Below, in pieces: positions 16,959 through 32,270 of a stretch of 64,000 bases of DNA. Every line of letters begins with the position of its first letter. The first letter of the stretch is position 1. The stretch spans positions 129,038 through 193,037 of the forward strand of contig CATONX010000002.1 of NCBI GenBank assembly GCA_951801675.1. The letters are read 5' to 3'. The position numbers were made by a program, and so were the translations under genes. The notes beneath the pieces were generated by a model, which was not told the origin of the DNA, did not search any database, and saw nothing but the letters and a program-made list of their open reading frames with translations. The stretch is from an uncultured Eubacteriales bacterium (lineage in GTDB: Bacteria; Bacillota; Clostridia; Oscillospirales; Acutalibacteraceae).

Positions 16959-17008
16959 AAAATTACCTCCTGTTTTGGGAAGAGAGCATTTCAAATAGTA
17001 TCCCGATC

Positions 17009-17123: not shown

Positions 17124-17513
17124 ATGGCTGCAAAAGGATCGCTATTGGCACACATTTTTACTTCAGATTCCAATATTCCCGTAGAAGAGGCCACGGTTAC
17201 GGTTACGCAGACCCAGCCGGACGGGCTTATCGAACTGCTCGCCGTTCGGATTACCGATGAAAGCGGCTTAACCAAGCCCCTGGAAGTTCCCACACCCGAA
17301 AAAGCCGTCAGTCAAGCACCTTCTGAGGAGCAGCCCTTCTCTTTGGTGCAGGTAACAGCGGAGCATCCGCTATACGAGCGGATTGTGGTAAAGGATGTGC
17401 AAATATTCCCCGACACCGTGTCCATACAGAATATGCAGTTGATTCCGTTAGCGGAAGCGCCGGAGGTTTTCAACCAGACCGAGGTCTTTCCCATACCGCC
17501 CCAAAACCTGTAA
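17124..17513 (+). CDS. Carboxypeptidase-regulatory-like (Ig-like beta-sandwich) domain protein
   Basis: 129 aa; GGGAGG RBS. The motif AHIFTSDSNIPVEEATVTV is typical of CarboxypepD_reg-like domains. Confidence 0.6.
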   Translation: MAAKGSLLAHIFTSDSNIPVEEATVTVTQTQPDGLIELLAVRITDESGLTKPLEVPTPEKAVSQAPSEEQPFSLVQVTAEHPLYERIVVKDVQIFPDTVSIQNMQLIPLAEAPEVFNQTEVFPIPPQNL

Positions 17514-17525
17514 GGAGGTGCCAAC

Positions 17526-18935: not shown

Positions 18936-19507
18936 TGGCAATCGTCAATGAGCCGATCGGCCAGCCGATCCGAAGCCTGCAGATCATGCTCAGGGCCATC
19001 GCCCAATACGACGGGGATGTTCTCCCGGTGATCCCGGACGGGATTTATTCCAATGATACGGTGGCATCGGTTTCCTCTTTCCAGAAGCGGCATGGGCTGC
19101 CTGTTACGGGGGAAACCGATCTTCAGACCTGGTATGCGGTGGCTGCCGCGTACCGGCAGGCATTGGTGGAAATCGGTCCGGCACAGCCGGTAAATATCAT
19201 TCTGCAAAGAGGCCAAGTCATCCGAGCGGGAGAAGTAAACGAACACCTGTACATGATGCATGGAATGCTGCGCTGTATCGGCTGCTATTATCCATCCATG
19301 CCCCGGGTTTTATGCAACAATGTACACGATGAGCAGTCCGTCGCGGCCATCCGCTGGCTGCAGACCCGTGCCGGCATAGAGCCTACCGGCGAGATTACCA
19401 GGCTGACCTGGAAGCACCTGTCCCTTCTTTACCGGATTACCGTAGGAGACGGCACTGTCCCGGCCCCCGCTGCACCCAACTTGCAAAATGACGTTGTCAA
19501 AGAGTAA
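18935..19507 (+). CDS. Peptidoglycan-binding protein (two PG_binding_1 repeats)
   Basis: Start MAIVNEP at 18935 overlaps the upstream TGA (TGATG). Repeat motif: DGIYSNDTVASVSSFQKRHGLPVTGETDLQTW. The ORF-track start at 18776 lies inside the preceding gene. Confidence 0.75.
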   Translation: MAIVNEPIGQPIRSLQIMLRAIAQYDGDVLPVIPDGIYSNDTVASVSSFQKRHGLPVTGETDLQTWYAVAAAYRQALVEIGPAQPVNIILQRGQVIRAGEVNEHLYMMHGMLRCIGCYYPSMPRVLCNNVHDEQSVAAIRWLQTRAGIEPTGEITRLTWKHLSLLYRITVGDGTVPAPAAPNLQNDVVKE

Positions 19508-19648: not shown

Positions 19649-20155
19649 TTATCCTGATGTGGTCAGCTTCCCTTTTTCCAGGTGATGAACCATATCACAC
19701 CCCCTTGCAATGGAATTCGAGTGGGTGACGATGATGACGCACTTTCCCTGTTCGTGGGCAATGCCGCGGAAAATACGCGGGATAGTTTCCTCTGCAGCGC
19801 CGTCCAGATTTCCAATGGGTTCATCCACGATCATTAGATTGGGATTGTGGGCGCGGGCGATGCCCATCCGCTGCGGTTCCCCGCCAGAGAGCTTTAAGAC
19901 CTTCCGGTCAGCAGTTTCCCGGTCGATCCCCACCTGTTCCAGAAATCCGTAGGCGGCCTGCCTCATTTTTTTCGCCCTTACTCTGGAGATGCGCATGGAG
20001 AGCTCCATGTTTTGTACGGCGGTAGCGTTTGTCAGCCGGTTATATCCCTGGAAAACCTCACCGATGTCGCGGGCACGGTCGCGGTCGAGCCGCTTGAGGT
20101 CCTTGCCGCACAACCGTGCACAATCCGTATAACGGGACAGCGTGGATAAAAATCA
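19649..20155 (-). pseudogene. 5'-truncated ABC transporter ATP-binding gene (no Walker A)
   Basis: Keeps a degenerate signature and Walker B (LSGGEPQRMGIARA-HNPNLMIVDEP). It aligns by eye with residues ~60-220 of the intact ATPase at 34282-34956. An in-frame stop occurs at about 20150. Confidence 0.65.
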
Positions 20156-20187
20156 GCCGTTTGGGTTTGTTTCCTCTTCCATTTTTG

Positions 20188-20205
20188 GAACATATGTTCT
20201 ATAAT
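20188..20205 (+). promoter_or_regulatory. LexA (Cheo/SOS) box GAACATATGTTC abutting a TATAAT -10 hexamer
   Basis: Perfect GAAC-N4-GTTC palindrome at 20188-20199, immediately followed by TATAAT at 20200-20205. It lies 35 nt upstream of the 50-aa ORF. Confidence 0.6.
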
Positions 20206-20240
20206 CCAAAAGGAAAACCAAAACGGAGGTTTTTATCAGC

Positions 20241-20393
20241 ATGGATATAGATCAAAAAGAGGCCCCGTCCAATGAGACGGTAGAGGAGCTTTTGTATGTG
20301 CTTGCGAGAAATTCAGAGGAGTATGCGAAACAAGTGCTTACATACGCGGTATGTTTGGAACGCAGCGCTTACGCTGGCAAAAAGAACGAATAA
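20241..20393 (+). CDS. Hypothetical 50-aa acidic helical protein (not in the ORF track); candidate SOS-controlled antirepressor
   Basis: Own translation: MDIDQKEAPSNETVEELLYVLARNSEEYAKQVLTYAVCLERSAYAGKKNE. GGAGG lies 11 nt upstream, and a terminator follows directly. Confidence 0.4.
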   Translation: MDIDQKEAPSNETVEELLYVLARNSEEYAKQVLTYAVCLERSAYAGKKNE

Positions 20394-20400
20394 GACCCAG

Positions 20401-20437
20401 AAAAGGCCGGGGAATCATTCCCCGGCCTTTTCTGTTT
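20401..20437. terminator. Bidirectional terminator shared by the small ORF and the XRE gene
   Basis: GGCCGGGGAA / TTCCCCGGCC stem flanked by AAAA and TTTT. It overlaps the last codons of the XRE gene. Confidence 0.6.
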
Positions 20438-20804
20438 GCGTTTGAAGACCGCTTATGAATTTCTGCACGGCTGCTTTTTCCTTTGCGTCCAACTGCCAAT
20501 AGGCCTGCAAAAGCCCTTTGATGAAAGAATCGTCCGACGTCTGTATTTCTGTTAGGATCTCAATGAGCTGTGCGTCTTTAGAAAGCTCTTGAAACATCTC
20601 CCCCTGGCCGGTGCGCAGCCAGAGCTCGGAAACATGAAACTCCCGGCAGATATCCGCCACCGTCCGGTCGCTGGGATTTCGCTTTCCCGATACCAGCTGG
20701 GAAACATAGGATTGGTCGATATTGAGCCGCTGCGCGAACTGGACCTTTTTGATCCCGACCGCGCCAAGCAGCAAACCGATTCTTTTACCGATGGTATTTT
20801 CCAT
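20415..20804 (-). CDS. XRE-family (cI-like) phage repressor
   Basis: N-terminal HTH_3 motif: VQFAQRLNIDQSYVSQLVSGKRNPSDRTVADICREFHVSELWL. It faces away from the structural genes. Confidence 0.85.
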   Translation of the reverse strand: MENTIGKRIGLLLGAVGIKKVQFAQRLNIDQSYVSQLVSGKRNPSDRTVADICREFHVSELWLRTGQGEMFQELSKDAQLIEILTEIQTSDDSFIKGLLQAYWQLDAKEKAAVQKFISGLQTQTEKAGE

Positions 20805-20877
20805 TGCCTCACCCTCCGTCTCTGGGTATTACGGTATCACATAAAAATGGCTGTGTCAAGTTTTTTGAAAAAAGGAG

Positions 20878-20906
20878 TTGACAAACATGGCTAGGCACTA
20901 TATAAT
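20878..20906 (+). promoter_or_regulatory. Consensus sigma-A promoter (orphan early, PR-like) bracketed by a 9-bp inverted repeat
   Basis: TTGACA (20878-20883), 17-nt spacer, TATAAT (20901-20906). Flanked by GCTGTGTCA (20850-20858) and TGACACAGC (20909-20917). Confidence 0.55.
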
Positions 20907-21050
20907 GATGACACAGCAAATATAAACCCATTGGAAACAGGGCTGAGAGAAAGGCGGCACAAGGTACTTGGTGCCGGTTTGAAGCCGTTGAACGAAAATG
21001 GACATGCTTTTTACCAAAGCGGATACAAGCAGCCGCAGACCAAAGGCCCG

Positions 21051-21083
21051 AAAAAAGAAACCCGCCTGCCACTGGCAGACGGG
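21051..21083 (-). terminator. Terminator of the TM2 gene
   Basis: Stem CCCGCCTGCC / GGCAGACGGG, followed on the minus strand by TTTCTTTTTT. Confidence 0.55.
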
Positions 21084-21092
21084 AATATAACC

Positions 21093-21470
21093 TCAAACAT
21101 AATAGGGATTCGGTTTGGTACAAAGCACCACAAAGTCCACGAGGAAGCCGATTCCAAACAAACCGGCTGTAAACAAATACAGAATTCCCATCCCGATTTT
21201 GCCCTCATAGAATTTGTGGCCGCCAAATATGCCAAGGAAAAAGCAAAGAAGCAAGGACACCCATTTGTTTTTCATGCTGGAATAGGATGGAGCAGGGGCT
21301 CCGGGATAGCCGTAGGGGCTTTCCACATTGCTTACGGTGGTGTTCTCAACGTTGTTATAGATCACGTTTTCATAGTTATTGATGATAATGGGCTGCCCGG
21401 GCTGAACTTCGGGGATCTGATTTGGAGGGGTTGCCGGCTGTGGATCAAAGTTGGTTGTCTCATTTGGCAT
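21093..21470 (-). CDS. TM2-domain membrane protein
   Basis: Pro/Asn-rich N-terminus followed by a TM2 signature: LLLCFFLGIFGGHKFYEGKIGMGILYLFT. Good RBS. Confidence 0.8.
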   Translation of the reverse strand: MPNETTNFDPQPATPPNQIPEVQPGQPIIINNYENVIYNNVENTTVSNVESPYGYPGAPAPSYSSMKNKWVSLLLCFFLGIFGGHKFYEGKIGMGILYLFTAGLFGIGFLVDFVVLCTKPNPYYV

Positions 21471-21763: not shown

Positions 21764-22396
21764 ATGGCTCAATTGAATCAGAAACGGCCGGTTTTATCGA
21801 CGAAGAACAATCACATTTTGCCCGGAAATATTCCACAGGACGGTACGGCGCAAAAAAACAACGTGCCCGTGCAGCTGATGCAAAATCAGCTCGATGAGCT
21901 GATTGGGCGCGCTTATGCAAGAGGCGTGCGCAAAGGCAAACGCGACGCGGCAGAGGCGGTTGCAGAGGAACAAAAAGAAAAGGCCTATGAGGTCCTTCGC
22001 GCAGCAACGGGGCGACTTTTGCATGCTACCGTTCGGGAGGCGGCCGCCTCCCTGGGCCTTTCCGCAAAAGGGGCACAGACGGCGCTGAGACTGATGGATT
22101 TTTCCAGATGTATCAAGGATGGGGATGTGAACGAAACAGCGGTTAAAGAGCTTGTGGCCGGATTTCTGGAAGAGTATCCGGAGTTTCATATAAGACCGCA
22201 GACCGCTGGGCGCAAAGCATCCCGCAGGAGGAGACGCGCCTTTGTCACAGGCGGCTCTGCCTGCAAGAAGCAAGCGGTACATACGACACAAAAAGGACGC
22301 AGGCCGTCCCGCGTCCGCCAAATCAGGCAGGCTGCCTTTTCTGCCGGGGACGGCGTTGCGGCAGGAAAAGAGCACAACAAGGAGCGTCACCCATGA
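21764..22396 (+). CDS. Phage scaffold-like (DUF4355-like) protein with an aberrant Arg-rich C-terminal tail
   Basis: Charged helical N-terminus, then ...LRLMDFSRCIKDGDVNETAVKELVAGFLEEYPEF, which resembles scaffold proteins. The last ~65 aa (RKASRRRRRAF...) look non-native. Confidence 0.5.
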   Translation: MAQLNQKRPVLSTKNNHILPGNIPQDGTAQKNNVPVQLMQNQLDELIGRAYARGVRKGKRDAAEAVAEEQKEKAYEVLRAATGRLLHATVREAAASLGLSAKGAQTALRLMDFSRCIKDGDVNETAVKELVAGFLEEYPEFHIRPQTAGRKASRRRRRAFVTGGSACKKQAVHTTQKGRRPSRVRQIRQAAFSAGDGVAAGKEHNKERHP

Positions 22397-22764
22397 GCTA
22401 CATCAATGTCAGCGATTACAAGGAAAACATGCGAAGCCAGCAGCCGGAAGATTTCGAAGTTTTGGCCATTTGGGCCAGCGAGCAGATCGACGCGGCGACC
22501 AACTGGCAGTTACGCGGCAGTCTGGCGAATTTGGATGAGTTTGAAGCCGGACAGGTTAAAAAAGCCGCCTGCATCCAGGTGAAGTGGCTGGAGGAGCTGG
22601 GCGGAATGAGCGCTTTGGTAACCCCCGCGTTTTCCAGCATGTCCTTAGGCAAGTTTACGATTTCCATGCCAGCAGGAGCGGAAGAGGCGGGCGCGCTTTG
22701 CCCGTTGGCAAAGCTTTGCCTGTCCCCCACAGGGCTGCTGCACACGGGGGAGGTAGCGAAGTGA
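22393..22764 (+). CDS. Phage head-tail connector/adaptor-like protein
   Basis: 123 aa; ATGA overlap with the preceding gene. Position and size fit a gp6-like connector. Call is based on context. Confidence 0.5.
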   Translation: MSYINVSDYKENMRSQQPEDFEVLAIWASEQIDAATNWQLRGSLANLDEFEAGQVKKAACIQVKWLEELGGMSALVTPAFSSMSLGKFTISMPAGAEEAGALCPLAKLCLSPTGLLHTGEVAK

Positions 22765-23093
22765 TTCCGATTCCATCCGCCCTCCTCATCCACGCAGCAA
22801 AGCTGCTGCCGACTGCCAAAGAGGATGTCTGGCAGAACAAAAATTACAGTCAGCCGGTTCTTCTCTCCGGCATCCGGGTGGAGCCGGCCGGGCAATGGAC
22901 AATGGAAGGCCAAAACCGGCGGATATCGCATACCGCCACCCTTTTTTACGATTGCCGCAACAGCAGGCCCCAGAACGTAGAGTTTCAAGCGGGCGGAAAA
23001 ATCGTATTCGAGGGCAGGGAATATACCATTGAAACGGTGGAACCGCTCTATGACGGCCGCCGGCTGCACCACATTGAGGTGGGCCTGTCGTGA
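22761..23093 (+). CDS. Phage minor-capsid/head-tail joining protein (Minor_capsid_1-like)
   Basis: GTG start overlaps the upstream TGA (GTGA). 110 aa ending ...GREYTIETVEPLYDGRRLHHIEVGL, which is typical of this family. Confidence 0.55.
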   Translation: MIPIPSALLIHAAKLLPTAKEDVWQNKNYSQPVLLSGIRVEPAGQWTMEGQNRRISHTATLFYDCRNSRPQNVEFQAGGKIVFEGREYTIETVEPLYDGRRLHHIEVGLS

Positions 23094-23356
23094 TGAAAAC
23101 AGCTGCCGGCCTCGATTGAAATCCGGTTTTTTCCCAGAAGGTTCGAAAGGATGGCAGCCTTCGCTGCACAAAAGGCCAACGCAGCCGGATGAAAAACGGC
23201 CTGCTCGAACATGCCTTGCAAAAGAGAGAACCCATCTGGGGAAAGGCTGCCGCAGAAGGCGCAAGCGAAATCCCTGAAAGAAAAGCCCGACAGCCGCGGC
23301 AAAGACCGGGTGGAGGGCACTTATCCACACATTTACAAGAACGGAGGGAATGCATC
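23094..23356 (+). pseudogene. Possible frameshifted remnant of a head-tail joining gene
   Basis: A 263-bp gap in an otherwise tightly packed module. Protein-like pieces are scattered over three frames (MKTAAGLD*, MAAFAAQKANAAG*, MKNGLLEHALQKREPIWGKAAAEGA...). Confidence 0.25.
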
Positions 23357-23731
23357 ATGCAGCCACAAACTGAGTTTTTGGAACAGGTATGCCGCACGGT
23401 AGACAGCTTTGGGCTTCCCTATGCCTGTACGGTTGGCCCCCTGCCGGAGCAAGGGGGAATCAGCGTTGAGCTGACGCAAGGAGAGACCCAGACCTATCTC
23501 AACCGGCAGGAATGCCACCGGCTTACCCTCTTGTTCCTGTGCAAACACCAAAATCAGAAAACGGCGATGGATATGGCAGCGACCATACGAAACCGTCTTT
23601 CCCGCCAGGAGCGTTATCCTGATGGGAAGACGTTTTCCTGGATCGGCCTGGAAGCCGGGGAACCGCAATTCAACGAAACCCAGGACGGCCATATCTATGC
23701 GCTTACAACCGAAGCCTTACTTTATTTTTAG
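23357..23731 (+). CDS. Phage minor-capsid/tail-completion-like protein
   Basis: Start MQPQTEF at 23357, 6 nt after GGAGGGA. 124 aa. The ORF-track extension from 23189 lacks coding character. Confidence 0.55.
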   Translation: MQPQTEFLEQVCRTVDSFGLPYACTVGPLPEQGGISVELTQGETQTYLNRQECHRLTLLFLCKHQNQKTAMDMAATIRNRLSRQERYPDGKTFSWIGLEAGEPQFNETQDGHIYALTTEALLYF

Positions 23732-23742
23732 GAGGTAATCTT

Positions 23743-24174
23743 TTGGAACTGAATTATAACATCAAGGCAGAACTTGACACGTCCAACAACGCCGCGCAGC
23801 CTGTTTGGTCCGATCTTGGCAAGACCATGACCAACCTGACCATGTCTCTCAACGAGGTGATGACCCAGTATTCCCGCCTGGCGGACAACGGCTGGGGCAG
23901 TACCGACGTGACCGGCGGCCAGTTCACCGTCACCTTCACCGGCCATAAGGTGGAAGGCGATCCGGTTTCCGACTACATCTTCAGCAACGATGTGGAGTAT
24001 AAGTTCGGCGACGCCCGCAAAACCAAGATGCGTCTGGTGTGGGGCACGAAGGCGATTGTCTGGAACGTGACCCTGGCCAACATCACCGAGGGCGGCGGCG
24101 ACGCCCAGCAGCCCAACGCCATTACCCTGACGGTTCACGGCAACGGCGCCCCCACCTTTGAAACCATTTCGTAA
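23743..24174 (+). CDS. Phage major tail (tube) protein
   Basis: TTG start with AGGAGG upstream; 143 aa; lies immediately upstream of the chaperone pair and the tape measure; a stem-loop follows the gene. Confidence 0.65.
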   Translation: MELNYNIKAELDTSNNAAQPVWSDLGKTMTNLTMSLNEVMTQYSRLADNGWGSTDVTGGQFTVTFTGHKVEGDPVSDYIFSNDVEYKFGDARKTKMRLVWGTKAIVWNVTLANITEGGGDAQQPNAITLTVHGNGAPTFETIS

Positions 24175-24180
24175 TCACTC

Positions 24181-24212
24181 GGAGGCGGGAAACATCCCGC
24201 CTCCCTCATTTT
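24181..24212 (+). terminator. Stem-loop (partial terminator) after the major tail gene
   Basis: GGAGGCGGGA / TCCCGCCTCC stem followed by CTCATTTT. Confidence 0.45.
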
Positions 24213-24226
24213 AAGGGAGATTTGTC

Positions 24227-24661
24227 ATGGCTTATTTGATTAAACGTACGTCGCATTTTACCGATGAATTGAAGTTCGCCACCGATTCCGGCGAGGTTGT
24301 GGCCTGCATTCCCGTGGACCTGGACATTGACCGGATCGCCCAGGACCTGTACAAGCGGTATTTTGACTTAATCCATGTTCAGCAGGAAACAGCGAAGCTG
24401 CGGGTACAGGAGCAAACCCCCGAGGCGCTGGCCGCCCAGATGGAAAAGCTTAATAACACGGTGGCGTCCTTGTACAATCTGCTCTTCGGCGAGGAGAACA
24501 CGTCCCGTATGCTTGCATTTTTCGATGGAAATTACACGGAGCTGCTTGCCCAGACCTATCCCTACCTGGTGGATGTGGTAATCCCCGCCATCCGGGAACG
24601 GGCAGACGCCAGGAAAAAGGAGCTCCTTGCAAAACAGCGGAAAAGCAAGTGGCGTCGGTAA
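24227..24661 (+). CDS. Phage tail assembly chaperone (gpG-like)
   Basis: 144 aa, acidic and helical, directly upstream of a -1-frame overlapping ORF and the tape measure gene. Confidence 0.55.
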   Translation: MAYLIKRTSHFTDELKFATDSGEVVACIPVDLDIDRIAQDLYKRYFDLIHVQQETAKLRVQEQTPEALAAQMEKLNNTVASLYNLLFGEENTSRMLAFFDGNYTELLAQTYPYLVDVVIPAIRERADARKKELLAKQRKSKWRR

Positions 24662-25233
24662 CGGTTCTCGGGAAACGATTCCGGCTGAATCTCGCGTACG
24701 ACGCCGTTCTTTCCTGCATCCAGGCGGGCCGGGACCCGGTGCTGGGCGATCTGGACAAGCTGGAGCTTTGCCTGGCGATCTTAGTCAAAAACAGGCGGGC
24801 ATTGCGCAGGCTGGGCCCTCAGGACAAAAGTAAGCTATACGAGGAAATCAGCTCGAAGCATCTCAATGTGATTTCCCGCAAGGCGCCCGGAAAGCAGGCT
24901 CAGCCGGTGTCCGATTTTGTGGAGGATTTCGATTTGATCTACAGCAGCTTCCGGTTCGCTTACGGTATCGATCTCAACCGGGAGCGAGGAAAGCTTTTAT
25001 GGAAGGAATTCTGCTGGCTCTTTGAAGGCCTGCCTCCCGGATGCAAAATGCGGGAGGTTATGGAAATTCGGGCCCGGAAGATTCCGTCTCCCACCAAATA
25101 CAACCAGGAAGAAATCCGGCAGCTCACCGAGCTCAAACAGTATTGGATGCTTCCTGCGTTTGGCCCGGGCAATTACCAGGAACAGTTGGAAGGTCTCTTT
25201 GAGGCGCTGTCCAGATTGGCGGTGAAAGCATGA
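24649..25233 (+). CDS. Phage Gp15-family / gpT-like tail chaperone
   Basis: 194 aa in the -1 frame relative to the preceding ORF, with a 13-nt overlap and a GTG start. The motif ...DFDLIYSSFRFAYGIDL... resembles the Gp15 family. Confidence 0.55.
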   Translation: MASVTVLGKRFRLNLAYDAVLSCIQAGRDPVLGDLDKLELCLAILVKNRRALRRLGPQDKSKLYEEISSKHLNVISRKAPGKQAQPVSDFVEDFDLIYSSFRFAYGIDLNRERGKLLWKEFCWLFEGLPPGCKMREVMEIRARKIPSPTKYNQEEIRQLTELKQYWMLPAFGPGNYQEQLEGLFEALSRLAVKA

Positions 25234-25370
25234 CGGAAATTCGCTGCCCTTACTGCGGGTGGCTGCTGCTCAAGGCGATTTGCGTCAACGGCGAGATCAA
25301 ATGCAAGCGATGTAAGCATACTGTTCGAATTATCTATCCAAAAGACAGAGTGAGCCGCACCGAAGAGTAG
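25230..25370 (+). CDS. Com-like zinc-ribbon small protein (46 aa; not in the ORF track)
   Basis: Own translation: MTEIRCPYCGWLLLKAICVNGEIKCKRCKHTVRIIYPKDRVSRTEE. It has two CxxC pairs, and its ATG overlaps the upstream TGA (ATGA). Confidence 0.5.
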   Translation: MTEIRCPYCGWLLLKAICVNGEIKCKRCKHTVRIIYPKDRVSRTEE

Positions 25371-25406
25371 CGAGCCATACCTGCAAGAGAAGGCAGGTGA
25401 AGGCAT

Positions 25407-27434
25407 TTGGCAGACAACGAAATCAAGTATCAAGCTCATATTAACGGAGAAGAAATTCTCATTCAAGTAAGAACGATCAACAAAAACATAGAACAGAGTG
25501 CAAAAGAGACCAGCCAAAAACTTGAGAACAATGCCAAGAAAACGGGGAAGACGCTGGTCGAGCAAACAAAAAAGACGGCGAAAGAAGTCAGCCAGAGCTA
25601 TCAGGACGAGGGCGCAAAGGTTGAGAAGGAAGCCGGAAAAACCAGCGGTAAGCTGGCCAAAATGGCAGTCGAAGCGAAGGATACGATTATTTCCAAAGCA
25701 AAAGAAGCAACGGGTATTACCGGAAATGTCTTTCTCGATGTGGGCAATGCAATGCTTGGCGTTGGTAAAATAGCGGTGGATATTGGCAAAAAGGCTGTGG
25801 AATCCGCTATAAATATGGATAAGGCGATGAATCAATTTCAAGCGTCCACCGGCAAGAGCGCAGAGGAGATGGACCGGTATCAGGATGTCTTGGAAAAGAT
25901 TTATGCCAACAACTACGGCAAGGATTTCGAAGAGATTGCCAACGGTATGGCACAGGTCACCAAAGGCATGGGGGATCTGCCGGACGAACAACTGCAGTCC
26001 ATTACCGAATCGGCATTTGCATTGCGCGATACCTTTCAATACGATCTGAATGATTCCATTGACGCGGCCAGTGCCATGGTCAAGCAGTTCGGCATTGACG
26101 GCGACCAGGCAATGAACCTGCTTGCGGCCGGCGCTCAAAACGGACTGGACAGTTCAGGCGAGCTGCTCGGGAACATCACCCAATACACCGAGCAGTTTGC
26201 AAAGGCGGGTTTCAGCGCCGACGACATGTTCAAAATCATGCAGGCGGGTGCGGATTCCGGCGCGTTTAGCCTGGAGACGGTGGCAGGCGCGCTTGACAAA
26301 ATGTCCGCCCGGATTGCCTCCGGTTCCGGGGAGGCGGCAGAAGGCTTTGCCGCTCTGGGCCTCAACGCGGACGATATGGCCGCCAAATTTGCCGCCGGCG
26401 GGGAGTCGGCGAAAGAAGCGTTCGACCAGACCATTGAGGCACTGGCCGGTATGGAAGACCCCCTTGCCCAGAGCCAGGCGGGGACAGCTCTCTTTGGCGA
26501 GGCATGGACGGAAATGGGTCCGGATGTGGTGGAGCAGCTGGCAAACATCCAGGCCGGCGCCTACGACACAGCCGACGCTATGGGTGTGATCAAAGAAGCA
26601 AAATCCGACGATTTGTCGTCCATGTTCGAGAAATTGCAGCGTCAGGTAGAACTGCTGCTGCTTCCTTTGGGAGAGGCACTGCTTCCTGTGCTGGAAAAGC
26701 TGCTTGGGGCTTGCCTGCCGCTGGTTGAGACCTTGGGGGATATACTGGCGCCTATTCTTGAGCAATTTGGCGAGATCATTGCCGTACTGATGATACCGCT
26801 CACCTCGCTGGTCGACATCATTGCCGATATTCTGCCTCCGATCATTGTCGCTCTGTCAGGCATTATGAAAAACGTGCTGGGCGTGGCGTTTGACTATATC
26901 GGAAATATGATCGGCAACGTGATGCAGGTGTTTCAGGGGATCATCGATTTTATTACCGGTGTTTTCACAGGAAACTGGGAACAGGCGTGGAACGGCATCA
27001 TCGACATCTTCAAGGGGATTTTTAATATCATCCCCACCATCATAGAGGCAATTTTAAACGGCGGTATTGGGATTATCAACGGTCTCATCGACGGCATCAA
27101 TTTCATCACCGGCGCGATCGGCATTCCTCCCATTCCGCACATTCCAAGCGTCCAGATTCCCCGTCTGAAAATCGGTCTCGACTATGTCCCAAGCGACTTT
27201 TTCCCGGCGTTTCTCGACGAGGGCGAGCGGGTGCTGACCAAGGAGGAAAACGTGCGCTTTAACGCTTTGGGCGGCCTGCCGGGCCTGGAAGCGGCCCTGT
27301 CCGGCTACGGAGTAGCCGGCGCGAGCCCTTCCTTCGCCATTTCCCTGGTGGGCGACGTGACCATGGACGGGCGCCGGGTAGGCAGCGTGGTGCTGCAGAA
27401 TATCGACAGCGTGGTGAGAAGCAATGGCGGTTGA
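25407..27434 (+). CDS. Phage tail tape measure protein
   Basis: 675 aa; helical Ala/Gly/Lys-rich N-terminus; a TP901-type core (NMDKAMNQFQASTGKSAEEM...); a hydrophobic Gly/Ile-rich C-terminal segment. Confidence 0.85.
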   Translation: MADNEIKYQAHINGEEILIQVRTINKNIEQSAKETSQKLENNAKKTGKTLVEQTKKTAKEVSQSYQDEGAKVEKEAGKTSGKLAKMAVEAKDTIISKAKEATGITGNVFLDVGNAMLGVGKIAVDIGKKAVESAINMDKAMNQFQASTGKSAEEMDRYQDVLEKIYANNYGKDFEEIANGMAQVTKGMGDLPDEQLQSITESAFALRDTFQYDLNDSIDAASAMVKQFGIDGDQAMNLLAAGAQNGLDSSGELLGNITQYTEQFAKAGFSADDMFKIMQAGADSGAFSLETVAGALDKMSARIASGSGEAAEGFAALGLNADDMAAKFAAGGESAKEAFDQTIEALAGMEDPLAQSQAGTALFGEAWTEMGPDVVEQLANIQAGAYDTADAMGVIKEAKSDDLSSMFEKLQRQVELLLLPLGEALLPVLEKLLGACLPLVETLGDILAPILEQFGEIIAVLMIPLTSLVDIIADILPPIIVALSGIMKNVLGVAFDYIGNMIGNVMQVFQGIIDFITGVFTGNWEQAWNGIIDIFKGIFNIIPTIIEAILNGGIGIINGLIDGINFITGAIGIPPIPHIPSVQIPRLKIGLDYVPSDFFPAFLDEGERVLTKEENVRFNALGGLPGLEAALSGYGVAGASPSFAISLVGDVTMDGRRVGSVVLQNIDSVVRSNGG

Positions 27435-28902
27435 ATGCTATATCAATAAAATACGCTATCCACTGGTGGATACGGTGGAGCTGTGCGACCATGCGGCGGC
27501 GACCTCGGAAAGCAGCATCCGGGTGGACATCCGGGGGCTGCCCGAGCCCCAGGCGCTGGATGTGGTTTACTTGTTCCGGGATGGCAGGCTTTTGTTCGGC
27601 GGGCTGTGCGGGATTCCCAGTTCCCCCGCCTGGACAAGTGCGTACACGCCCCAGCACTATGATCTGACCGTGTCCGGCATGAATAATCTGCTGACCCACC
27701 GCTATGTCAACAAGGCCTGGAGGGACAGCAGCCTCTACGACATTGTCATGGAGGTCTACGAGAGCATTCTGGCGCAGGATAACATCGCGCTGGGGGAAGT
27801 GTCCCAGGCGCTGACCGATTTGCCCCGGCAGGTCTATATCGCGCCGGATATGACGGCCTATGACGTATTAAACGAACTGGCGGGGCTGGTGGGGGCCGTG
27901 TGGGACATCAAGGCAAACCCGGATTGGACGGTATCCGATTACCTGTCCGGTTCGCAGGCCAATCCCTTCCGGTTTTCCTTCTGCTTAAAGGACGATTTTC
28001 CGGTGGTAACGGCGGATAAGCGCAACATATGCAGCCTGCAAAAAAATGTGGAAAGCTATGCGCTGCGTACGGTGCAGGTGGTAAACGGCGCCACCGGCGT
28101 GACGGATCCTCAGCAGGAAACCGTGGTCTACCATGCCGACGACGGCGTGGTTACGACGGTCTGGCCGGTCTATGACATGCCGTCCATCATCTACGGATCG
28201 CCTCCGGTTCAAGCGAAGGTCGGCGTTGCCGGGATTGACGACGAGGATGACACCGTGCAGTTCCTTTTTTCCTATAATTCCGCGGAAATCAAGGTCAACG
28301 ATGATGCAGTTGACCCGGTGCCGGACGGCGCCTTGGTAAGGATTTCGTACCGCGGGCTGTTCCAGCTGCGGGTGCGGGTGCGCAACAATCAAATGATTGA
28401 GGACATCGCCGCCCGCTCCGGGGTGTCCGGCATGCTTGAGGAAGTCGAGGTGGATGAGCGCATCACCGACGCCGCATCGCTGATCGATTATGCGACTACG
28501 GCGCTTTATAACAATTCCCAGCCGGAAACCACATTGGAAATCACCACCCGGAGCATGGAAGGAACCGAGCCCTTTACCATCTGGCGCTGCCAATTTCCGG
28601 AGTGCCGCATAAACGACGATTATGTAGTGGTGGAACGTACGGTTACCATTACGGGGGGCAGCCTGGACGTTGGGCTCAAATGCAAGGACCGGGGCTTTCT
28701 GACCGCCTACGGGAAAACCTTTTATAAACAGTATAAGGACGCGGCGGCCGGCATCCGGGAGGATGAAGTGGTCATTGCGTCCGACACCATCAGCACGGCG
28801 GTGACAGCCGCCGCGAAATTTGCGGCCAAAGCTCCGCTTGTCTGTTATGCGGGCGACGGACAGCCTTGGCTGTGGGGAGGGGATCACTACGCCCAATATT
28901 GA
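27424..28902 (+). CDS. Phage distal tail/baseplate protein (hypothetical)
   Basis: 492 aa, overlapping the tape-measure stop. Call is based on position; I recognise no specific family. Confidence 0.5.
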   Translation: MAVECYINKIRYPLVDTVELCDHAAATSESSIRVDIRGLPEPQALDVVYLFRDGRLLFGGLCGIPSSPAWTSAYTPQHYDLTVSGMNNLLTHRYVNKAWRDSSLYDIVMEVYESILAQDNIALGEVSQALTDLPRQVYIAPDMTAYDVLNELAGLVGAVWDIKANPDWTVSDYLSGSQANPFRFSFCLKDDFPVVTADKRNICSLQKNVESYALRTVQVVNGATGVTDPQQETVVYHADDGVVTTVWPVYDMPSIIYGSPPVQAKVGVAGIDDEDDTVQFLFSYNSAEIKVNDDAVDPVPDGALVRISYRGLFQLRVRVRNNQMIEDIAARSGVSGMLEEVEVDERITDAASLIDYATTALYNNSQPETTLEITTRSMEGTEPFTIWRCQFPECRINDDYVVVERTVTITGGSLDVGLKCKDRGFLTAYGKTFYKQYKDAAAGIREDEVVIASDTISTAVTAAAKFAAKAPLVCYAGDGQPWLWGGDHYAQY

Positions 28903-29308
28903 TGTACTGGCAGTAGGGCGCATCGGTGACGAGGACTATAACGGCGTCATCACGGATACCGCCATGAATGCGGTCACCGGTTTGTTTATGGGTTTACCGC
29001 CTATAGACTGTAAGCCTGCCTACATTGCCGTAGGAGATGGTACGGCTGCGGCCACCGCCACAGACACAGCACTTGCACACGAGACGGCAAGGTTCGCGGT
29101 TACACAGCTGACTCAGACAAACGGCATCACCACAGCGCTGCTCAATCTTCCAATCACGTCACAGGATCTGGAGATCAAAGAGGTAGGCGTGCTTACGAAG
29201 GACGGCGCTCTGCTCTGCCGTGCAAATGTAGAGATCGTAAAAAACCAAAACAACGTCATTAACATGATGTGGGTACTATCCATCGAAAGGGGGACGGGAA
29301 ATGCTTGA
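28847..29308 (+). CDS. Phage tail-collar fibre (DUF3751-like) protein; start uncertain
   Basis: The pattern AVGDGTAAATATDTALAHETARFAV...IKEVGVLTKDGALLCRANV matches the tail-collar fibre N-terminal domain. No good RBS; alternative start TTG at 28820. Confidence 0.5.
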   Translation: MRATDSLGCGEGITTPNIDVLAVGRIGDEDYNGVITDTAMNAVTGLFMGLPPIDCKPAYIAVGDGTAAATATDTALAHETARFAVTQLTQTNGITTALLNLPITSQDLEIKEVGVLTKDGALLCRANVEIVKNQNNVINMMWVLSIERGTGNA

Positions 29309-30224
29309 GGCATGGATTGCCACGACAAAAAAAGTGGTCGCACATGACAAGCGGTCCAACACCGATTACGAGTTTGAGAGCCGGTTCCCGGACGGGATTG
29401 ACGGAACCCCGTTTTCGGCGGCGGAGATGAACAAAATCATTGGCGCGGTCAATGCGTTGCCCAATGATAACCTGCTTCTGGACAGCCACTTTCGGCTGTG
29501 GGATGAGGGTACATCCTTTTCTGGTGCGTATACCTCCGGCGGGTACACGGCCACCCTCTGGTGGGTTAAGAACCTGTCCGGGGGAACCATCACCGTATCC
29601 AGGGCAGAGGGCGGTGGTATGAACATTCAGGGGACCGGAACCGTGCAGGTTTCCCAGCCCATTGAGGACGCGAAGCTGCTGGATGGCAAAACGGTGACGC
29701 TGTCCTGGTCGGTGGATGGTATGGAGCACGCAAAAACCTATGTCTTTGACGCATCCATATCCAACGCCGCCACTGTGGAGATTGCCTGCGGCGGCACGAT
29801 TAACTGGGTCAAGCTGGAACTTGGCGCATATGTGACGCCCTGCATGCCCCGGCCGCTCGTGCAAGAAAAGCAGTTGGCCATGCGGTATTTCTGGCAGACC
29901 TTTGAAGGAGAGTTGCCGTCGGGGCTGGGTGGTAAGATGTCCTATGTCTTTATGGCTGACGTCAACGGCGTCGCAGATGCGCTTTTTTGCGCGCCGATGC
30001 CCATGTACCGGGCTCCTACCGCGCGCCACTACACAGAGACGACCGGAGATGTGGATCAAGTATCGATCTATACGAGGGAAACAGGATATTATTCATCCGC
30101 TCCCAATATATCGCCATTTGCAAACAACCGCGTCCTTGGCCTGCGGTTAACCGGATGTACGCCAAACACCGTTGGTTTTATCGCTTGGCACGGCCGTTAT
30201 GATGCCCGTATGGAGGTGACTTGA
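29301..30224 (+). CDS. Phage tail fibre/receptor-binding-like protein (hypothetical)
   Basis: 307 aa, overlapping both neighbouring genes. Call rests on context only. Confidence 0.45.
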
Positions 30225-31174
30225 TGCGTACCATTACACTGACTATCAAAAACGATATCTTAATCCCGTCAGACACGCTTGCAGGCCAGACCGGAGAACA
30301 CCAGGACACAAAATTGAAGGTCATACTGCCATCCGGCTGGAAAGGATGCGACGCATATACCCTGTGGTTTTGCAATTCGAGCGGCATGTATCAGACAGAG
30401 CAGCTGACAGAGCCGGTCAGCTACCTGCTGCCGGGTGGATTGCTGTGTCCTGGTAAGCTGGAGACGTGGCTGGAGGCCAGGACGGAAGATACGGTTCACC
30501 GTACCGGAAAAGCCGAGCTGTATGTTGTATCCTCTCCGGACTGGGAACGTGACCTAGCTCCCATACCAGACCGGTACGAGGGACTGGTGGCGGTCCCCCT
30601 GGGCATGTTTGAGGCGGGGATGACCAAGGTGGATGAAGTTTATGACGCATATTCCAGTGGAGCACTGAAGGGGGAACAGGGACTGCCTGGCGAACAAGGT
30701 CCTATGGGTCCCCAGGGCCCGAAAGGTGACAATGGCGAGGGAATTACGATTCTGGGTTCCTATGATACGCCCGATGAACTCAAACAGAACCATCCCGTTG
30801 GAAATCCGGGCGACGCTTATTTGGTAGCGGGCAACCTGTATGTATGGGACACGGCTACAGAGGCGTGGAAAGACGTGGGCAATATTCAGGGACCCAAGGG
30901 AGAGCCCGGCCTGCAGGGTCCTGCCGGTGAGACCGGTCCTCAAGGACCCAAAGGAGACAAGGGCGACCCCGGAGAGCAAGGCCTTCCAGGCCCGAAAGGA
31001 GAACCTGGGACAACCGGCCCCCAAGGGGCGACTGGCCCTGCCGGTCCCCAGGGCGTCAAAGGGGACCCGGGTGACAGCATCCAGGTAGTCGTGCTGGCGA
31101 ACAAGGCCGCATACGACGCGTTACCTGCCTCCAGCAAACAAGATGCTACTAAGATCTATGCTTGGGGGTGTTGA
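30224..31174 (+). CDS. Phage collagen-like tail fibre protein
   Basis: TGATG overlap with the upstream gene. Two G-X-Y segments (aa 150-172 and 223-283) flank a [24 protein letters not shown] motif. Confidence 0.75.
30671..31072 (+). repeat. Collagen G-X-Y coding repeats within the phage fibre gene (two blocks: 30671-30739 and 30890-31072)
   Basis: Encodes [24 protein letters not shown] and [61 protein letters not shown]. Confidence 0.8.
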
Positions 31175-31175
31175 T

Positions 31176-31622
31176 GTGCCGACGATGATACAGAATACGG
31201 AGATCGCGGGTATGGCATATTTGGGCAAGGAAATCTGCGGTCTGGCAGCCGGAGGAAACGTTGGGTTTGCAGCTGCGCCCATCATATACAGCGCAGATCT
31301 TGCGGAAACCTCCGTCCCCGCAAACACGCCATTTCACATCACGGCCAAACTTAACCGGATTTCCTCCCGGATGGTGGCGTTTAATTCGGGAGGCGGTGCT
31401 GGCATTGCGCAAGGCAATGTTTCCATTACCGAACTGCAAGACGGCACAAAGGAATATCATTCCACCATTGCCTTTGGCACTACAGGCTTACGGTCGATTG
31501 ATTTTTATGCCCGGGACGCAAGCAACAACCAGTCTGTCAGCTGTATTACCAAGACCATCACCATTACCGCAAACGCCAATGACGGTTCGCAGGCGGATGT
31601 GGACAAACCCATCAACGTATAG
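31176..31622 (+). CDS. Phage hypothetical protein (Ig-like fibre accessory?)
   Basis: GTG at 31176, 5 nt after GGGGGTG; alternative ATG at 31185. Thr/Ser-rich and beta-type in composition. Confidence 0.45.
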   Translation: MPTMIQNTEIAGMAYLGKEICGLAAGGNVGFAAAPIIYSADLAETSVPANTPFHITAKLNRISSRMVAFNSGGGAGIAQGNVSITELQDGTKEYHSTIAFGTTGLRSIDFYARDASNNQSVSCITKTITITANANDGSQADVDKPINV

Positions 31623-31638
31623 AGCAAGAGGTGACAAT

Positions 31639-32270
31639 ATGCGTATTATTGACCTGACCATTGAGGATGACACGCTCGTCCCGTCCGACTGCTTTGCCGG
31701 GCAAACAGGAGAACACCAGGACACGGCGCTGACCGTGACTCTGCCGGAGGAGTGGGCGGGTTTTACCTGTACGTTCCGGTTTTACATTCCCAGTCAGAAT
31801 AAGCATTATCAGACCGTGCCGCTGACAGACCCGGTTTCTTTCCCGCTTCCCCAGGCACTGATGGTGGCCGGAAAGCTGCTTTGCTACCTGGACGCCCGGA
31901 AGGATAATACCATCCATCGAACCCGTGCGGCTACCCTACTGGTGGAGGAGTCCCCCGATTGGGGCAGTACGGTGGAGTCGGTTGCCAATCCCTATGAGGG
32001 GCTGGCTGAGGTGTCCTGAGAGGACGTTGCCGACGCCCTTGGATGAATGCTTCCCAAGGACCGTCAGGAACCCCGGGTGACGTATGACCACATCCCCGTA
32101 TCCCTGCGGGCTTGGCCATCAGCACGGGACAAAACTGGAGAAACGGCAATGGCTCCATATTCATGGGGCCGGACGGTGCGATCAAATGTCTGACATACAT
32201 TCTCCAGCTCTCCTGCCCGAATGGATACCGGTTTTATTTGAAGCGGCACCCATGCGAAATGCATAATCCT
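31639..32270 (+). pseudogene. Truncated, frameshifted second copy of the collagen-like tail fibre gene
   Basis: The intact part, 31639-32019, is a paralogue of the N-terminal 125 aa of the 30224 gene (shared [22 protein letters not shown]). Downstream frames carry fragments such as QGPSGTPGD and GQNWRNGNGSIFMGPDGAI. Confidence 0.55.

What the first reader, a model, noticed from the sequence alone, without database searches (positions are those of the whole stretch)
20177..20393. Perfect Cheo-type LexA box on the promoter of an unlisted 50-aa ORF next to the prophage repressor
GAACATATGTTC (20188-20199) matches the GAAC-N4-GTTC core of the Firmicute LexA/DinR operator (the ideal site is CGAACATATGTTCG). 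It directly abuts a perfect TATAAT at 20200-20205.

Thirty-five nt downstream starts a 50-aa acidic, helical ORF (20241-20393). It has a GGAGG RBS and its own terminator, and it is convergent with the cI-like XRE gene.

In coliphage 186 (Tum) and the Gifsy prophages, induction works through a LexA-repressed small antirepressor rather than through repressor autocleavage. The XRE protein here has no obvious S24 peptidase domain. By inference, this could be an SOS-controlled antirepressor module. I do not recognise the ORF's family.
Basis: partly seen in the sequence, partly recalled or inferred. Interest (0 to 1): 0.65.

Follow-up and report, generated by a model that had tools for sequence, protein, structure and literature searches.

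The report
SOS-gated mini antirepressor beside phage repressor
A real, conserved 50-residue gene sits behind a DNA-damage (LexA) operator, tail-to-tail with a phage repressor that cannot cut itself; it most likely switches that repressor off after DNA damage, which is a known kind of switch built here from an unnamed small-protein family.

Summary
A GGAGG, a 50-codon ORF (20241-20393) and a bidirectional terminator follow. The ORF is convergent with a 129-aa XRE repressor that has no S24 domain.

One such box per 64 kb is what chance gives, so the support comes from comparison:
- **Conservation.** Box and -10 are 17/18 invariant in five diverged Solibaculum-type lineages, while the flanks are about 43% invariant.
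- **Real gene.** The ORF has dN/dS 0.1-0.2 at dS about 1, and it always accompanies this repressor.
- **Recurrence.** The same repressor family in gut and Clostridium phages carries a convergent 30-50-aa helical ORF. Of 16 independent lineages, 8 have a strict GAAC-N4-GTT(C/T) box in that ORF's promoter, often in the identical position abutting the -10 (p about 5e-14). They include C. perfringens phages phiSM101 and vB_CpeS-1181.

Best reading (0.6): a LexA-repressed micro-antirepressor that binds the repressor's C-terminal helical domain, as AimX does to AimC in Bacillus phages. That makes it a new member of a known kind.

Here it guards a head-less siphovirus tail cluster under purifying selection, not a complete prophage.

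LexA binding and the protein-protein contact are inferred.

The parts
20177..20182 (+). Weak -35 hexamer TTCCAT (2/6 match), 5 nt upstream of the box
   Evidence: Read. It occupies the same position as the strong -35 hexamers (TTGACA, TTGAAA, TTGCAA) in the related phage promoters of L076, L066, L040 and L028.
20188..20199 (.). LexA-type (Cheo) operator GAACATATGTTC, a perfect palindrome filling the promoter spacer
   Evidence: It is 11/12 invariant in five lineages; the one change is in the N4 spacer. The motif equals the Clostridial/Bacillus LexA operator GAAC-N4-GTT(C/T) (PMC4234289).
20200..20205 (+). -10 hexamer TATAAT abutting the operator
   Evidence: It is 6/6 invariant across lineages. 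The same box-abuts-(-10) geometry is seen in L028, L040, L066, L076 and L088.
20226..20230 (+). Ribosome-binding site GGAGG, 10 nt before the ATG
   Evidence: conserved.
20241..20393 (+). 50-aa acidic helical protein (core EELLYVLARNSEEYAxQVLTYAVCLE); candidate micro-antirepressor
   Evidence: dN/dS is 0.08-0.2 at dS 0.8-1.3. Homologues P0001-P0009 were found. AF2 predicts one long helix at residues 11-48 with pLDDT 86. Pfam, PHROG and PDB searches found no match.
20398..20434 (.). Bidirectional intrinsic terminator shared by the small ORF and the XRE gene
   Evidence: 17-bp stem, 10 GC pairs, both strands; perfect inverted repeat I11.
20415..20804 (-). 129-aa XRE/CI-type repressor: HTH (residues 5-65), linker, three-helix C-terminal domain (76-127); no autocleavage domain
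   Evidence: Pfam HTH_3 and PHROG transcriptional repressor. The PDB sequence search hits the 434 and P22 c2 repressor DNA-binding domains. AF2 pLDDT is 89. Foldseek hits include AimC (9iaq, 9sf2), SinR and DdrO. Metatranscriptome contigs of four runs lie on it.
20848..20858 (+). Putative repressor operator half TGGCTGTGTCA, left of the rightward promoter
   Evidence: It forms an inverted pair with 20909-20919, is conserved across lineages, and is unlike the LexA-type box.
20878..20906 (+). Consensus rightward promoter TTGACA-17-TATAAT (12/12) facing the tail genes; presumed target of the repressor
   Evidence: highly conserved intergenic region.
20909..20919 (-). Putative repressor operator half TTGCTGTGTCA (inverted copy)
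21764..32019 (+). Head-less siphovirus-type tail cluster: scaffold-like protein, two adaptors, minor-head-like protein, major tail, chaperones, tape measure, Dit-like protein, collagen-like fibres. Presumed regulated output of the switch.
   Evidence: PHROG hits. The same gene order without terminase, portal or capsid occurs in L001, L009, L016 and L017. dN/dS is 0.04-0.3.

Best explanation
The host SOS repressor LexA binds GAACATATGTTC, which fills the spacer and abuts the -10 of a small promoter. This keeps the 50-codon gene silent while the convergent XRE repressor is made constitutively.

That repressor sits on the inverted TG(G/C)CTGTGTCA sites flanking the consensus promoter at 20878-20906. 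It thereby shuts off the adjacent phage-tail gene cluster.

DNA damage activates RecA and LexA cleaves itself. The small acidic helical protein is then made and binds the repressor's C-terminal three-helix (oligomerisation) domain. This prevents productive dimerisation or DNA binding, so the rightward promoter fires. The logic is that of AimX-AimC (and SinI-SinR).

- **Shown here:** all sequence elements; conservation of the operator; purifying selection on the ORF; strict co-occurrence of the ORF and this repressor family; recurrence of LexA-type boxes at equivalent promoters in many phages; the two-domain architecture of the repressor.
- **Inferred:** LexA binding in this host; the protein-protein contact; the direction of the effect (derepression).
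For: - **Footprint in the Solibaculum clade.** Box 11/12 and -10 6/6 columns are invariant in five lineages. The flanks are 18/44 and 8/17 invariant (sequences). The only change, A to G in the N4 spacer, leaves both half-sites intact.
- **Real protein.** dN/dS is 0.08-0.2 with 15-20 synonymous differences. Residues 15-40 are invariant.
- **Always paired.** Every homologue in the Solibaculum clade lies tail-to-tail with the 129-aa XRE.
- **Pairing in distant phages.**
  - The distant homologue P0009 sits in a true lysogeny module: integrase, Fic, RhuM, small ORF, XRE, replication genes. Its XRE is 38% identical, including the C-domain.
  - Viral loci L025-L028 repeat the pair.
  - Another homologue sits directly upstream of an AntA antirepressor gene.
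- **Recurrence.**
  - Of 16 independent convergent micro-ORF lineages next to this repressor family, 8 have a strict GAAC-N4-GTT(C/T) box within 110 nt upstream of the start. Eleven have a box with at most 1 mismatch.
  - Background is 0.068 strict boxes per kb, giving binomial p of about 5e-14.
  - At least five lineages share the geometry -35 / 5 nt / box / -10.
- **Cultured phages whose hosts have a known LexA operator.** C. perfringens phiSM101 (GAACGTATGTTC before the 39-aa CPR_C0039) and vB_CpeS-1181 (GAACTCATGTTC). Blautia phage Montmirail has two boxes bracketing the promoter. The operator definition is from PMC4234289.
- **A host factor, not the phage repressor.** The motif stays the same while the repressors' HTH regions diverge to 35-49% identity. 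The repressor's own candidate operators here are different.
- **Repressor architecture.** HTH plus a helical C-domain. Full-length Foldseek hits include AimC (9iaq), the phi106 repressor-AimX complex (9sf2) and SinR-SinI (1b0n).
- **Expression.** Contigs from four mouse-gut metatranscriptomes cover the XRE gene and none covers the small ORF. This fits constitutive repressor and silent small gene, but is weak evidence.
- **Mechanistic precedent.** AimX (29-80 aa, helical, convergent with or overlapping aimC, LexA site in phi106) binds the AimC C-domain and blocks oligomerisation and DNA binding. Sar-SroF is likewise LexA-gated.
Against: - The host's LexA specificity is therefore assumed from its class, Clostridia.
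- **Motif count.** One box per 64 kb is the chance expectation.
- **Weak -35.** The -35 here matches only 2/6.
- **Not universal.** The largest viral group with an analogous 37-aa ORF (L030/L034 type) has no box. Nor do phiCp-B, Arawn and phiCD6356.
- **No detectable homology.** The small protein has no detectable sequence or fold relation to AimX, Tum, AntC, SinI or gp7.
- **Monomer model uninformative.** AF2 gives a single helix for the monomer. No co-fold with the repressor could be run.
- **Mimicry test inconclusive.** Profile comparison of small ORFs with the repressor C-domain gave probabilities of only 5-22%.
- **Expression data cannot show absence.** The metatranscriptome data are assembled contigs.
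Confidence: 0.6

Rival explanations
1. The gene is LexA-regulated, but its product does something other than inactivate the neighbouring repressor. It could modulate LexA itself (like the 50-aa gp7 of phage GIL01), act on a host process such as cell division during SOS, or serve as an accessory factor for the repressor.
For: Only the LexA-type operator and the coding constraint are directly supported. Nothing shows the target. gp7 is also about 50 aa and helical (PMC4551915, listed). Several relatives occur in operons without an adjacent XRE gene on short contigs (L018, L021).
Against: The ORF is strictly tail-to-tail with one repressor family across hosts, and ORF classes track repressor C-domain classes. 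That is what a cognate protein pair predicts. There is no sequence or fold match to gp7 or any PDB chain. The protein has no transmembrane segment, unlike the SOS division inhibitors YneA and SosA (read from the sequence).
Confidence: 0.15
2. The palindrome is the operator of a different regulator (phage-encoded or host), not LexA. The small gene would then respond to a signal other than DNA damage.
For: Host LexA and its regulon could not be examined. GAAC-N4-GTTC is short and occurs by chance about once per 64 kb. Many related modules lack the box.
Against: The same half-sites recur with variable spacers and variable positions in promoters of phages whose own repressors differ. These include phages of C. 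perfringens and C. difficile, where this is the experimentally used LexA operator. The local repressor's candidate operators are different.
Confidence: 0.1
3. The promoter mainly works at the RNA level. SOS-induced convergent transcription or an antisense RNA would interfere with expression of the repressor gene, and the ORF would be incidental.
For: The arrangement is convergent, and the terminator overlaps the repressor's last codons. aimX was originally proposed to act as an antisense transcript.
Against: A strong 17-bp bidirectional terminator separates the two genes, so little read-through is expected. The ORF shows clear protein-level constraint: synonymous changes are plentiful, the core is invariant, and the RBS and start are conserved. 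The AimX work showed the peptide, not the antisense RNA, is the effector.
Confidence: 0.07
4. The module is an inert relic. The regulatory module and tail cluster would be a decaying prophage remnant with no present function, and the box would be conserved only through recent common descent.
For: Head, packaging, replication, integrase and obvious lysis genes are missing. An ABC ATPase pseudogene lies next to it. The -35 is weak. A TM2 gene is inserted between the controlled promoter and the tail genes in this lineage.
Against: Lineages differ by dS of 0.25-1.3, yet the small ORF, the XRE and the tail genes all show dN/dS of 0.04-0.3 and intact frames. The operator is far more conserved than its flanks. 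The XRE gene is transcribed in the gut.
Confidence: 0.08

Closest known systems
AimX-AimC core of 'extended arbitrium' modules of Bacillus phages (phi106, BMBtp14, Wbeta, Waukesha92; bioRxiv 10.1101/2025.11.23.689978; PDB 9iaq, 9sf2)
   Same: - Both have a short (80-140 aa) HTH repressor without an autocleavage domain and with a helical C-terminal oligomerisation domain.
- Both have a 29-80-aa mostly helical ORF convergent with its 3' end.
- A LexA site lies just upstream of that ORF in phi106.
- A strong divergent lytic promoter lies on the other side of the repressor.
- The XRE model retrieves the AimC structures among its best full-length Foldseek hits.
   Different: - There are no aimR/aimP arbitrium genes here, so the input would be LexA alone.
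- No Cro-like AimL gene follows the lytic promoter.
- There is no detectable sequence homology of the small protein. For the repressor, homology covers only the HTH (9sf2 E = 1.4e-3, residues 1-68).
- The host is a Clostridia gut anaerobe.
- The controlled genes are a head-less tail cluster.
Sar-SroF of SPbeta/phi3T phages (bioRxiv 10.1101/2025.11.27.690993)
   Same: A small antirepressor whose promoter carries a Firmicute SOS box. Its expression is sufficient for induction, and the repressor is not cleaved by RecA.
   Different: SroF is an integrase-fold monomeric repressor, and Sar mimics DNA. Here the repressor is an XRE HTH protein with a helical C-domain. The genes are not homologous.
Coliphage 186 Tum, N15 AntC, Gifsy GfoA/GfhA/GftA (PMC3121763)
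   Same: The logic is the same: a LexA-repressed antirepressor inactivates a non-cleavable repressor.
   Different: These are Gram-negative phages with CTGT-N8-ACAG boxes and larger, unrelated proteins. Their genes usually lie far from the repressor gene. No Pfam or PHROG match was found here.
SinI-SinR of Bacillus subtilis (PDB 1b0n)
   Same: An XRE HTH repressor with a helical C-terminal multimerisation domain is antagonised by a roughly 57-aa helical protein that forms a heterodimer with that domain. SinR is among the full-length fold hits.
   Different: SinI is a recognisable paralogue of the SinR C-domain and is not SOS-controlled. Here homology between the small ORF and the repressor C-domain is not demonstrable.
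GIL01 gp7 (PMC4551915)
   Same: A 50-aa phage protein linked to LexA-dependent control of lysogeny in a Firmicute.
   Different: gp7 is a LexA co-repressor in a phage that lacks a CI-type repressor. No sequence or fold similarity was found. Here a CI-type repressor is present and always adjacent.

Membership tests
LexA (Cheo/SOS box) regulated promoter of Bacillota | Operator GAAC-N4-GTT(C/T) palindrome | tested here: met
   GAACATATGTTC at 20188-20199. The motif definition is from PMC4234289.
LexA (Cheo/SOS box) regulated promoter of Bacillota | Operator overlaps core promoter elements so that binding occludes RNA polymerase | tested here: met
   The box fills the spacer and abuts TATAAT. The same geometry occurs in L028, L040, L066, L076 and L088.
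LexA (Cheo/SOS box) regulated promoter of Bacillota | Operator conserved in orthologous promoters beyond the neutral rate | tested here: met
   17/18 columns are invariant against about 43% in the flanks. Recurrence across 16 lineages gives p of about 5e-14.
LexA (Cheo/SOS box) regulated promoter of Bacillota | Host encodes LexA, and the same motif lies before recA, lexA and uvr genes | not testable with these tools
No SOS gene lies in the window.
LexA (Cheo/SOS box) regulated promoter of Bacillota | LexA binding and induction by DNA damage | not testable with these tools
   This needs EMSA and mitomycin C RNA measurements. Metatranscriptome contigs only show the XRE gene, not the small ORF.
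AimX-AimC type small-antirepressor module | Short HTH repressor without an autocleavage domain and with a helical C-terminal oligomerisation domain | tested here: met
   129 aa, HTH_3 only. AF2 gives HTH 5-65 plus helices 76-89, 93-104 and 107-127. 9iaq and 9sf2 are among the top full-length fold hits, although with high rmsd.
AimX-AimC type small-antirepressor module | Small (29-80 aa) helical ORF convergent with the repressor gene | tested here: met
   50 aa, helix at residues 11-48, convergent and sharing a terminator.
AimX-AimC type small-antirepressor module | Small ORF and repressor co-vary as a cognate pair | tested here: inconclusive
   Co-occurrence is strict. Two ORF classes go with two C-domain classes. 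No formal co-evolution test was done.
AimX-AimC type small-antirepressor module | aimR-aimP arbitrium genes upstream of the small ORF | tested here: not met
   Upstream lie an ABC ATPase pseudogene and PG-binding genes. No receptor or peptide genes are present.
AimX-AimC type small-antirepressor module | Cro-like HTH gene (aimL) as the first gene of the divergent lytic operon | tested here: not met
   After the promoter at 20878-20906 come a TM2 gene on the other strand and then a scaffold-like gene. Relatives have a 49-aa ORF and then the 205-aa gene. Neither gave a Pfam HTH hit.
AimX-AimC type small-antirepressor module | Sequence homology to AimX or AimC | tested here: not met
   The small ORF has no PDB hit. 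The repressor matches 9sf2 only over the HTH, at E = 1.4e-3.
AimX-AimC type small-antirepressor module | Direct binding that blocks repressor oligomerisation and DNA binding | not testable with these tools
   No multimer prediction was available. This needs two-hybrid, SEC-MALS or EMSA.
Tum / AntC / Gifsy antirepressors | Sequence membership in those protein families | tested here: not met
   No Pfam or PHROG family matched, and tblastn found no match in 50,697 phage records.
SinI-like decoy (paralogue of the repressor's C-domain) | Detectable homology between the small protein and the repressor's oligomerisation helices | tested here: inconclusive
   hhalign probabilities were 0.1% and 5-22% with broader profiles. 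The registers were inconsistent.
F-type (non-contractile) tailocin | Tail genes without terminase, portal or capsid genes, conserved and under purifying selection | tested here: met
   PHROG annotation. The same head-less order occurs in four other lineages. dN/dS is 0.04-0.3.
F-type (non-contractile) tailocin | Dedicated lysis cassette and production of killing particles | tested here: inconclusive
   No holin or endolysin lies inside 21764-32019. A PG_binding/SpoIID-like 469-aa gene lies upstream, and a holin_5_2 gene lies nearby in L001 only. Particle production is not testable here.

The most novel reading that the evidence does not exclude
The head-less siphovirus tail cluster would be a domesticated, SOS-inducible F-type tailocin of Solibaculum (Oscillospiraceae). 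It would have been vertically kept across species. Its firing would be gated by a LexA-controlled 50-aa decoy that heterodimerises with the repressor's C-terminal helices. That would make it the first tailocin shown to use a micro-antirepressor switch, and the first in this gut family.
Probability: 0.2. Interest if true: 0.65.

Novelty: new member of a known kind. Interest (0 to 1): 0.5.

Why it matters
Small antirepressors are hard to find by homology and are usually unannotated. Here the LexA-gated design proven in 2025 for Bacillus arbitrium phages recurs, without arbitrium, next to one repressor family. That family has at least 364 relatives in IMG/VR. It also occurs in cultured phages of C. 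perfringens, C. difficile and Blautia, where the small ORFs are annotated 'hypothetical' or not at all.

This gives a simple, testable rule for how many gut Clostridia prophages with non-cleavable repressors sense DNA damage. That is relevant to antibiotic- and inflammation-driven prophage induction in the gut.

In this genome the switch guards a conserved head-less tail cluster. The same experiment (mitomycin C on Solibaculum intestinale CLA-JM-H44) would also show whether a tailocin-like particle is made.

Tried and rejected
- **Raw motif statistics.** One match against 0.98 expected. This was not usable as evidence, so conservation and recurrence were used instead.
- **Host regulon check.** No recA, lexA or uvr gene lies in the window.
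- **Family assignment of the 50-aa protein.**
  - Pfam, PHROGs, PDB sequence search, Foldseek and tblastn against cultured phages were all negative.
  - The 5.8-billion-protein search found only 4 clusters.
  - The profile search found 5 distant relatives.
- **Box as the XRE repressor's own operator.** Rejected. The conserved inverted repeats around the repressor-controlled promoter are TG(G/C)CTGTGTCA. The GAAC/GTTC motif also persists across phages with divergent HTH domains.
- **SOS-induced membrane toxin or division inhibitor (TisB, YneA, SosA type).** Rejected. The protein is acidic and hydrophilic with no transmembrane segment.
- **Small ORF as a paralogue of the repressor C-domain (SinI-like).** hhalign was inconclusive.
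- **Expression evidence.** Four metatranscriptomes show contigs on the XRE gene only. This is suggestive, but contigs cannot prove absence.
- **ABC ATPase fragment as an inversion partner of the intact ATPase at 34282-34956.** It is only 48% identical, so it is a diverged pseudogene and not a recent rearrangement.

Full report
**Observation**

- GAACATATGTTC lies at 20188-20199 and is directly followed by TATAAT (20200-20205).
- GGAGG is at 20226-20230 and the ATG at 20241.
- The ORF is 50 codons and ends at 20393.
- A 17-bp GC-rich hairpin at 20398-20434 scores as a terminator in both directions. It overlaps the stop codon of the convergent gene 20415-20804(-).
- That gene encodes a 129-aa XRE protein with HTH_3/Phage_CI_repr matches only and no S24 peptidase.

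Two qualifications apply.
- GAAC-N4-GTTC occurs once in the window against 0.98 expected.
- The -35 (TTCCAT) is poor, so the consensus promoter scan does not list this promoter.

**Is it more than chance?**

The small protein has homologues in only four 90%-identity clusters among 5.8 billion proteins. Every encoding contig has the same pair, with the small ORF convergent on the 129-aa XRE gene.

A genome scan found the pair in Solibaculum intestinale CLA-JM-H44 and in a Clostridiales MAG. Solibaculum belongs to the Oscillospiraceae, class Clostridia. DNA runs holding the window are mouse-gut metagenomes.

Across five lineages that differ by dS 0.8-1.3, the ORF has dN/dS 0.08-0.2 and an invariant core, EELLYVLARNSEEYAxQVLTYAVCLE.

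In the upstream region:
- the box is invariant at 11/12 columns; the one change is A to G inside the N4 spacer;
- the -10 is invariant at 6/6 columns;
- the flanking 44 and 17 nt are invariant at 18 and 8 columns.

This is a phylogenetic footprint of an operator plus -10.

**Wider comparison**

A profile search found distant relatives with the motif LL.VL.RN...VLTYA.CLE.
- One of them, P0009, lies in a genuine temperate-phage lysogeny module: integrase, Fic, RhuM, small ORF, 129-aa XRE, then replication genes. Its XRE is 38% identical to the window's, including the C-terminal half.
- Another lies immediately upstream of an AntA antirepressor gene.

Scanning IMG/VR with the XRE alignment gave at least 364 relatives; 80 loci were kept.
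- The closest four carry a detectable homologue of the small ORF in the convergent position.
- Most others carry a different 30-60-aa helical ORF in exactly that position.

In many independent promoters of these ORFs a GAAC-N4-GTT(C/T) box reappears, with a different spacer sequence each time.
- L028, L040, L066, L076 and L088 have the same geometry as the window: -35, 5 nt, box, -10.
- In L026, L027, L029 and L022 the box lies elsewhere in the promoter or just downstream of the -10.

Of 16 lineages, 8 have a strict box and 11 a box with at most 1 mismatch within 110 nt of the start. Background is 0.068 strict boxes per kb in 589 kb, giving binomial p of about 5e-14. The choice of lineages was post hoc, but the effect is large.

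Cultured phages show the same pattern.
- **With a box:**
  - C. perfringens phiSM101 has GAACGTATGTTC before the 39-aa CPR_C0039.
  - vB_CpeS-1181 has GAACTCATGTTC.
  - Blautia phage Montmirail has two boxes bracketing the promoter.
  - C. difficile phiCD111 and phiCD08011 have a one-mismatch box at the -35.
- **Without a box:** phiCp-B, Arawn, phiCD6356 and the large L030/L034 viral group. LexA gating is therefore frequent, not universal.

For Clostridia the LexA operator is GAAC-N4-GTT(C/T). It was used and tested for C. difficile and derived from C. acetobutylicum and C. perfringens (PMC4234289).

**The box is not the phage repressor's own site**

The XRE-to-tail intergenic region is highly conserved. 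It carries a 12/12 promoter (20878-20906) flanked by inverted TG(G/C)CTGTGTCA sites, which are unlike the box.

The GAAC/GTTC half-sites also persist across phages whose repressor HTH regions are only 35-49% identical. That fits a conserved host factor.

**The repressor**

AF2 (22-sequence alignment, pLDDT 89) gives a five-helix HTH (residues 5-65), a linker, and a three-helix C-domain (76-127).
- By sequence the HTH resembles the 434 and P22 c2 repressors.
- By fold, the best full-length matches include AimC of BMBtp14 (9iaq), the phi106 repressor-AimX complex (9sf2), SinR-SinI (1b0n) and DdrO.
- The rmsd values are high, so this is an architectural resemblance, not proof of a shared C-domain fold.

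The C-domains of two sequence classes of this family are homologous (hhalign probability 98%). Small ORFs against C-domains gave only 5-22%.

**Mechanism**

The best-supported model is the AimX-AimC logic.
1. LexA keeps the small gene off.
2. DNA damage removes LexA.
3. The small helical protein binds the repressor's C-terminal oligomerisation domain and stops DNA binding.
4. The consensus rightward promoter then fires.

Sar-SroF of SPbeta-like phages is a second Firmicute precedent for LexA-gated small antirepressors.

Consistent with a silent small gene and a constitutive repressor, contigs from four mouse-gut metatranscriptomes lie on the XRE gene and none on the small ORF. This is weak evidence, because contigs cannot show absence.

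**Context**

The genes controlled are not a full prophage.
- From 21764 to about 32019 there are a scaffold-like gene, two adaptors, a minor-head-like gene, major tail, chaperones, tape measure, a Dit-like gene and collagen-like fibres.
- Terminase, portal, capsid, integrase and replication genes are absent from the window, and no lysis gene was recognised in the cluster.
- The same head-less order is kept in four other lineages. Major tail protein is 97% identical, and dN/dS is 0.04-0.3 at dS 0.25-0.8.

The element is therefore maintained by selection. It may be a tailocin-like element, which is unproven.

**What could not be done**

No multimer prediction was available.

**Verdict**

This is a new member of the known class of LexA-controlled small antirepressors, built from an unnamed protein family. 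Earlier notes of this scan describe similar modules in other gut phages. They are leads only, but my independent loci agree with them.

Noticed in passing
window 21764-32019: A head-less siphovirus-type tail cluster with no terminase, portal or capsid genes. It keeps the same order in L001, L009, L016 and L017, with dN/dS of 0.04-0.3 (major tail protein 97% identical). It looks maintained, and is possibly a tailocin-like element. No lysis cassette was recognised inside it.
   Followed up: partly
window 19649-20113 (-): An ABC ATPase pseudogene lacking the Walker A part. It is only 48% identical to the intact ATPase at 34282-34956. Remnants of its upstream codons seem to persist in relatives that have lost the rest.
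   Followed up: partly
window 20120-20143: A 24-nt block, ACAATCCGTATAACGGGACAGCGT, is 19/24 invariant in all lineages although its flanks are variable. It lies 44 nt upstream of the LexA-type box. Its function is unknown; it could be a regulator site, or a leftover of the ABC gene frame.
   Followed up: no
window 21093-21470 (-): A TM2-domain membrane protein gene with its own terminator (21061-21083) lies between the repressor-controlled promoter and the tail genes. It is present only in the window/L006 lineage. Other lineages go straight from the promoter to a 49-aa ORF and the scaffold-like gene.
   Followed up: no
window 63759-63770: The second strict LexA-type box in the window, GAACGGGTGTTT, lies 2 nt after a TTGAAA hexamer in an intergenic stretch near the window end. 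Any gene it might control lies beyond the window.
   Followed up: no
L030-L064 group (IMG/VR), about 140 nt after the XRE stop: The most abundant relatives carry a convergent 37-aa ORF (MNETDRQGYIDAIIKLLERADLRALRLIWIHAKGLVK type) with no LexA-type box near it. Several of them (L041, L048, L049, L060) instead have a perfect GAACGATCGTTC about 1 kb on the other side of the repressor gene.
   Followed up: partly
L027, L030, L066, L076 (far side of the small ORF): In many related phages the small ORF shares its short intergenic region with a divergent zinc-ribbon (CxxC...CxxC) gene. The LexA-type box may therefore control both directions.
   Followed up: no
L106 1880-1999, L111 1554-1691, L109 1607-1726: In cultured phages phiSM101 (CPR_C0039), vB_CpeS-1181 (phiCPE_00041) and Blautia phage Montmirail (WAK79206.1), the equivalent micro-ORFs are annotated only as hypothetical proteins. 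In phiCD111 and phiCD08011 the equivalent ORF is not annotated at all.
   Followed up: partly
window 15759-16994 (-) and 30221-31174 (+): Two collagen-repeat (GXY) proteins lie on opposite strands, one outside and one inside the tail cluster. Their repeats give the long inverted and direct repeat families seen in the repeat scan.
   Followed up: no
window 17124-19507 (+): A conserved trio lies just upstream of the module in four lineages but not in L017: a 129-aa protein, a 469-aa protein with three PG_binding_1 domains and a weak SpoIID match, and a 190-aa PG-binding protein. It could be a cell-wall lytic function linked to the element.
   Followed up: no
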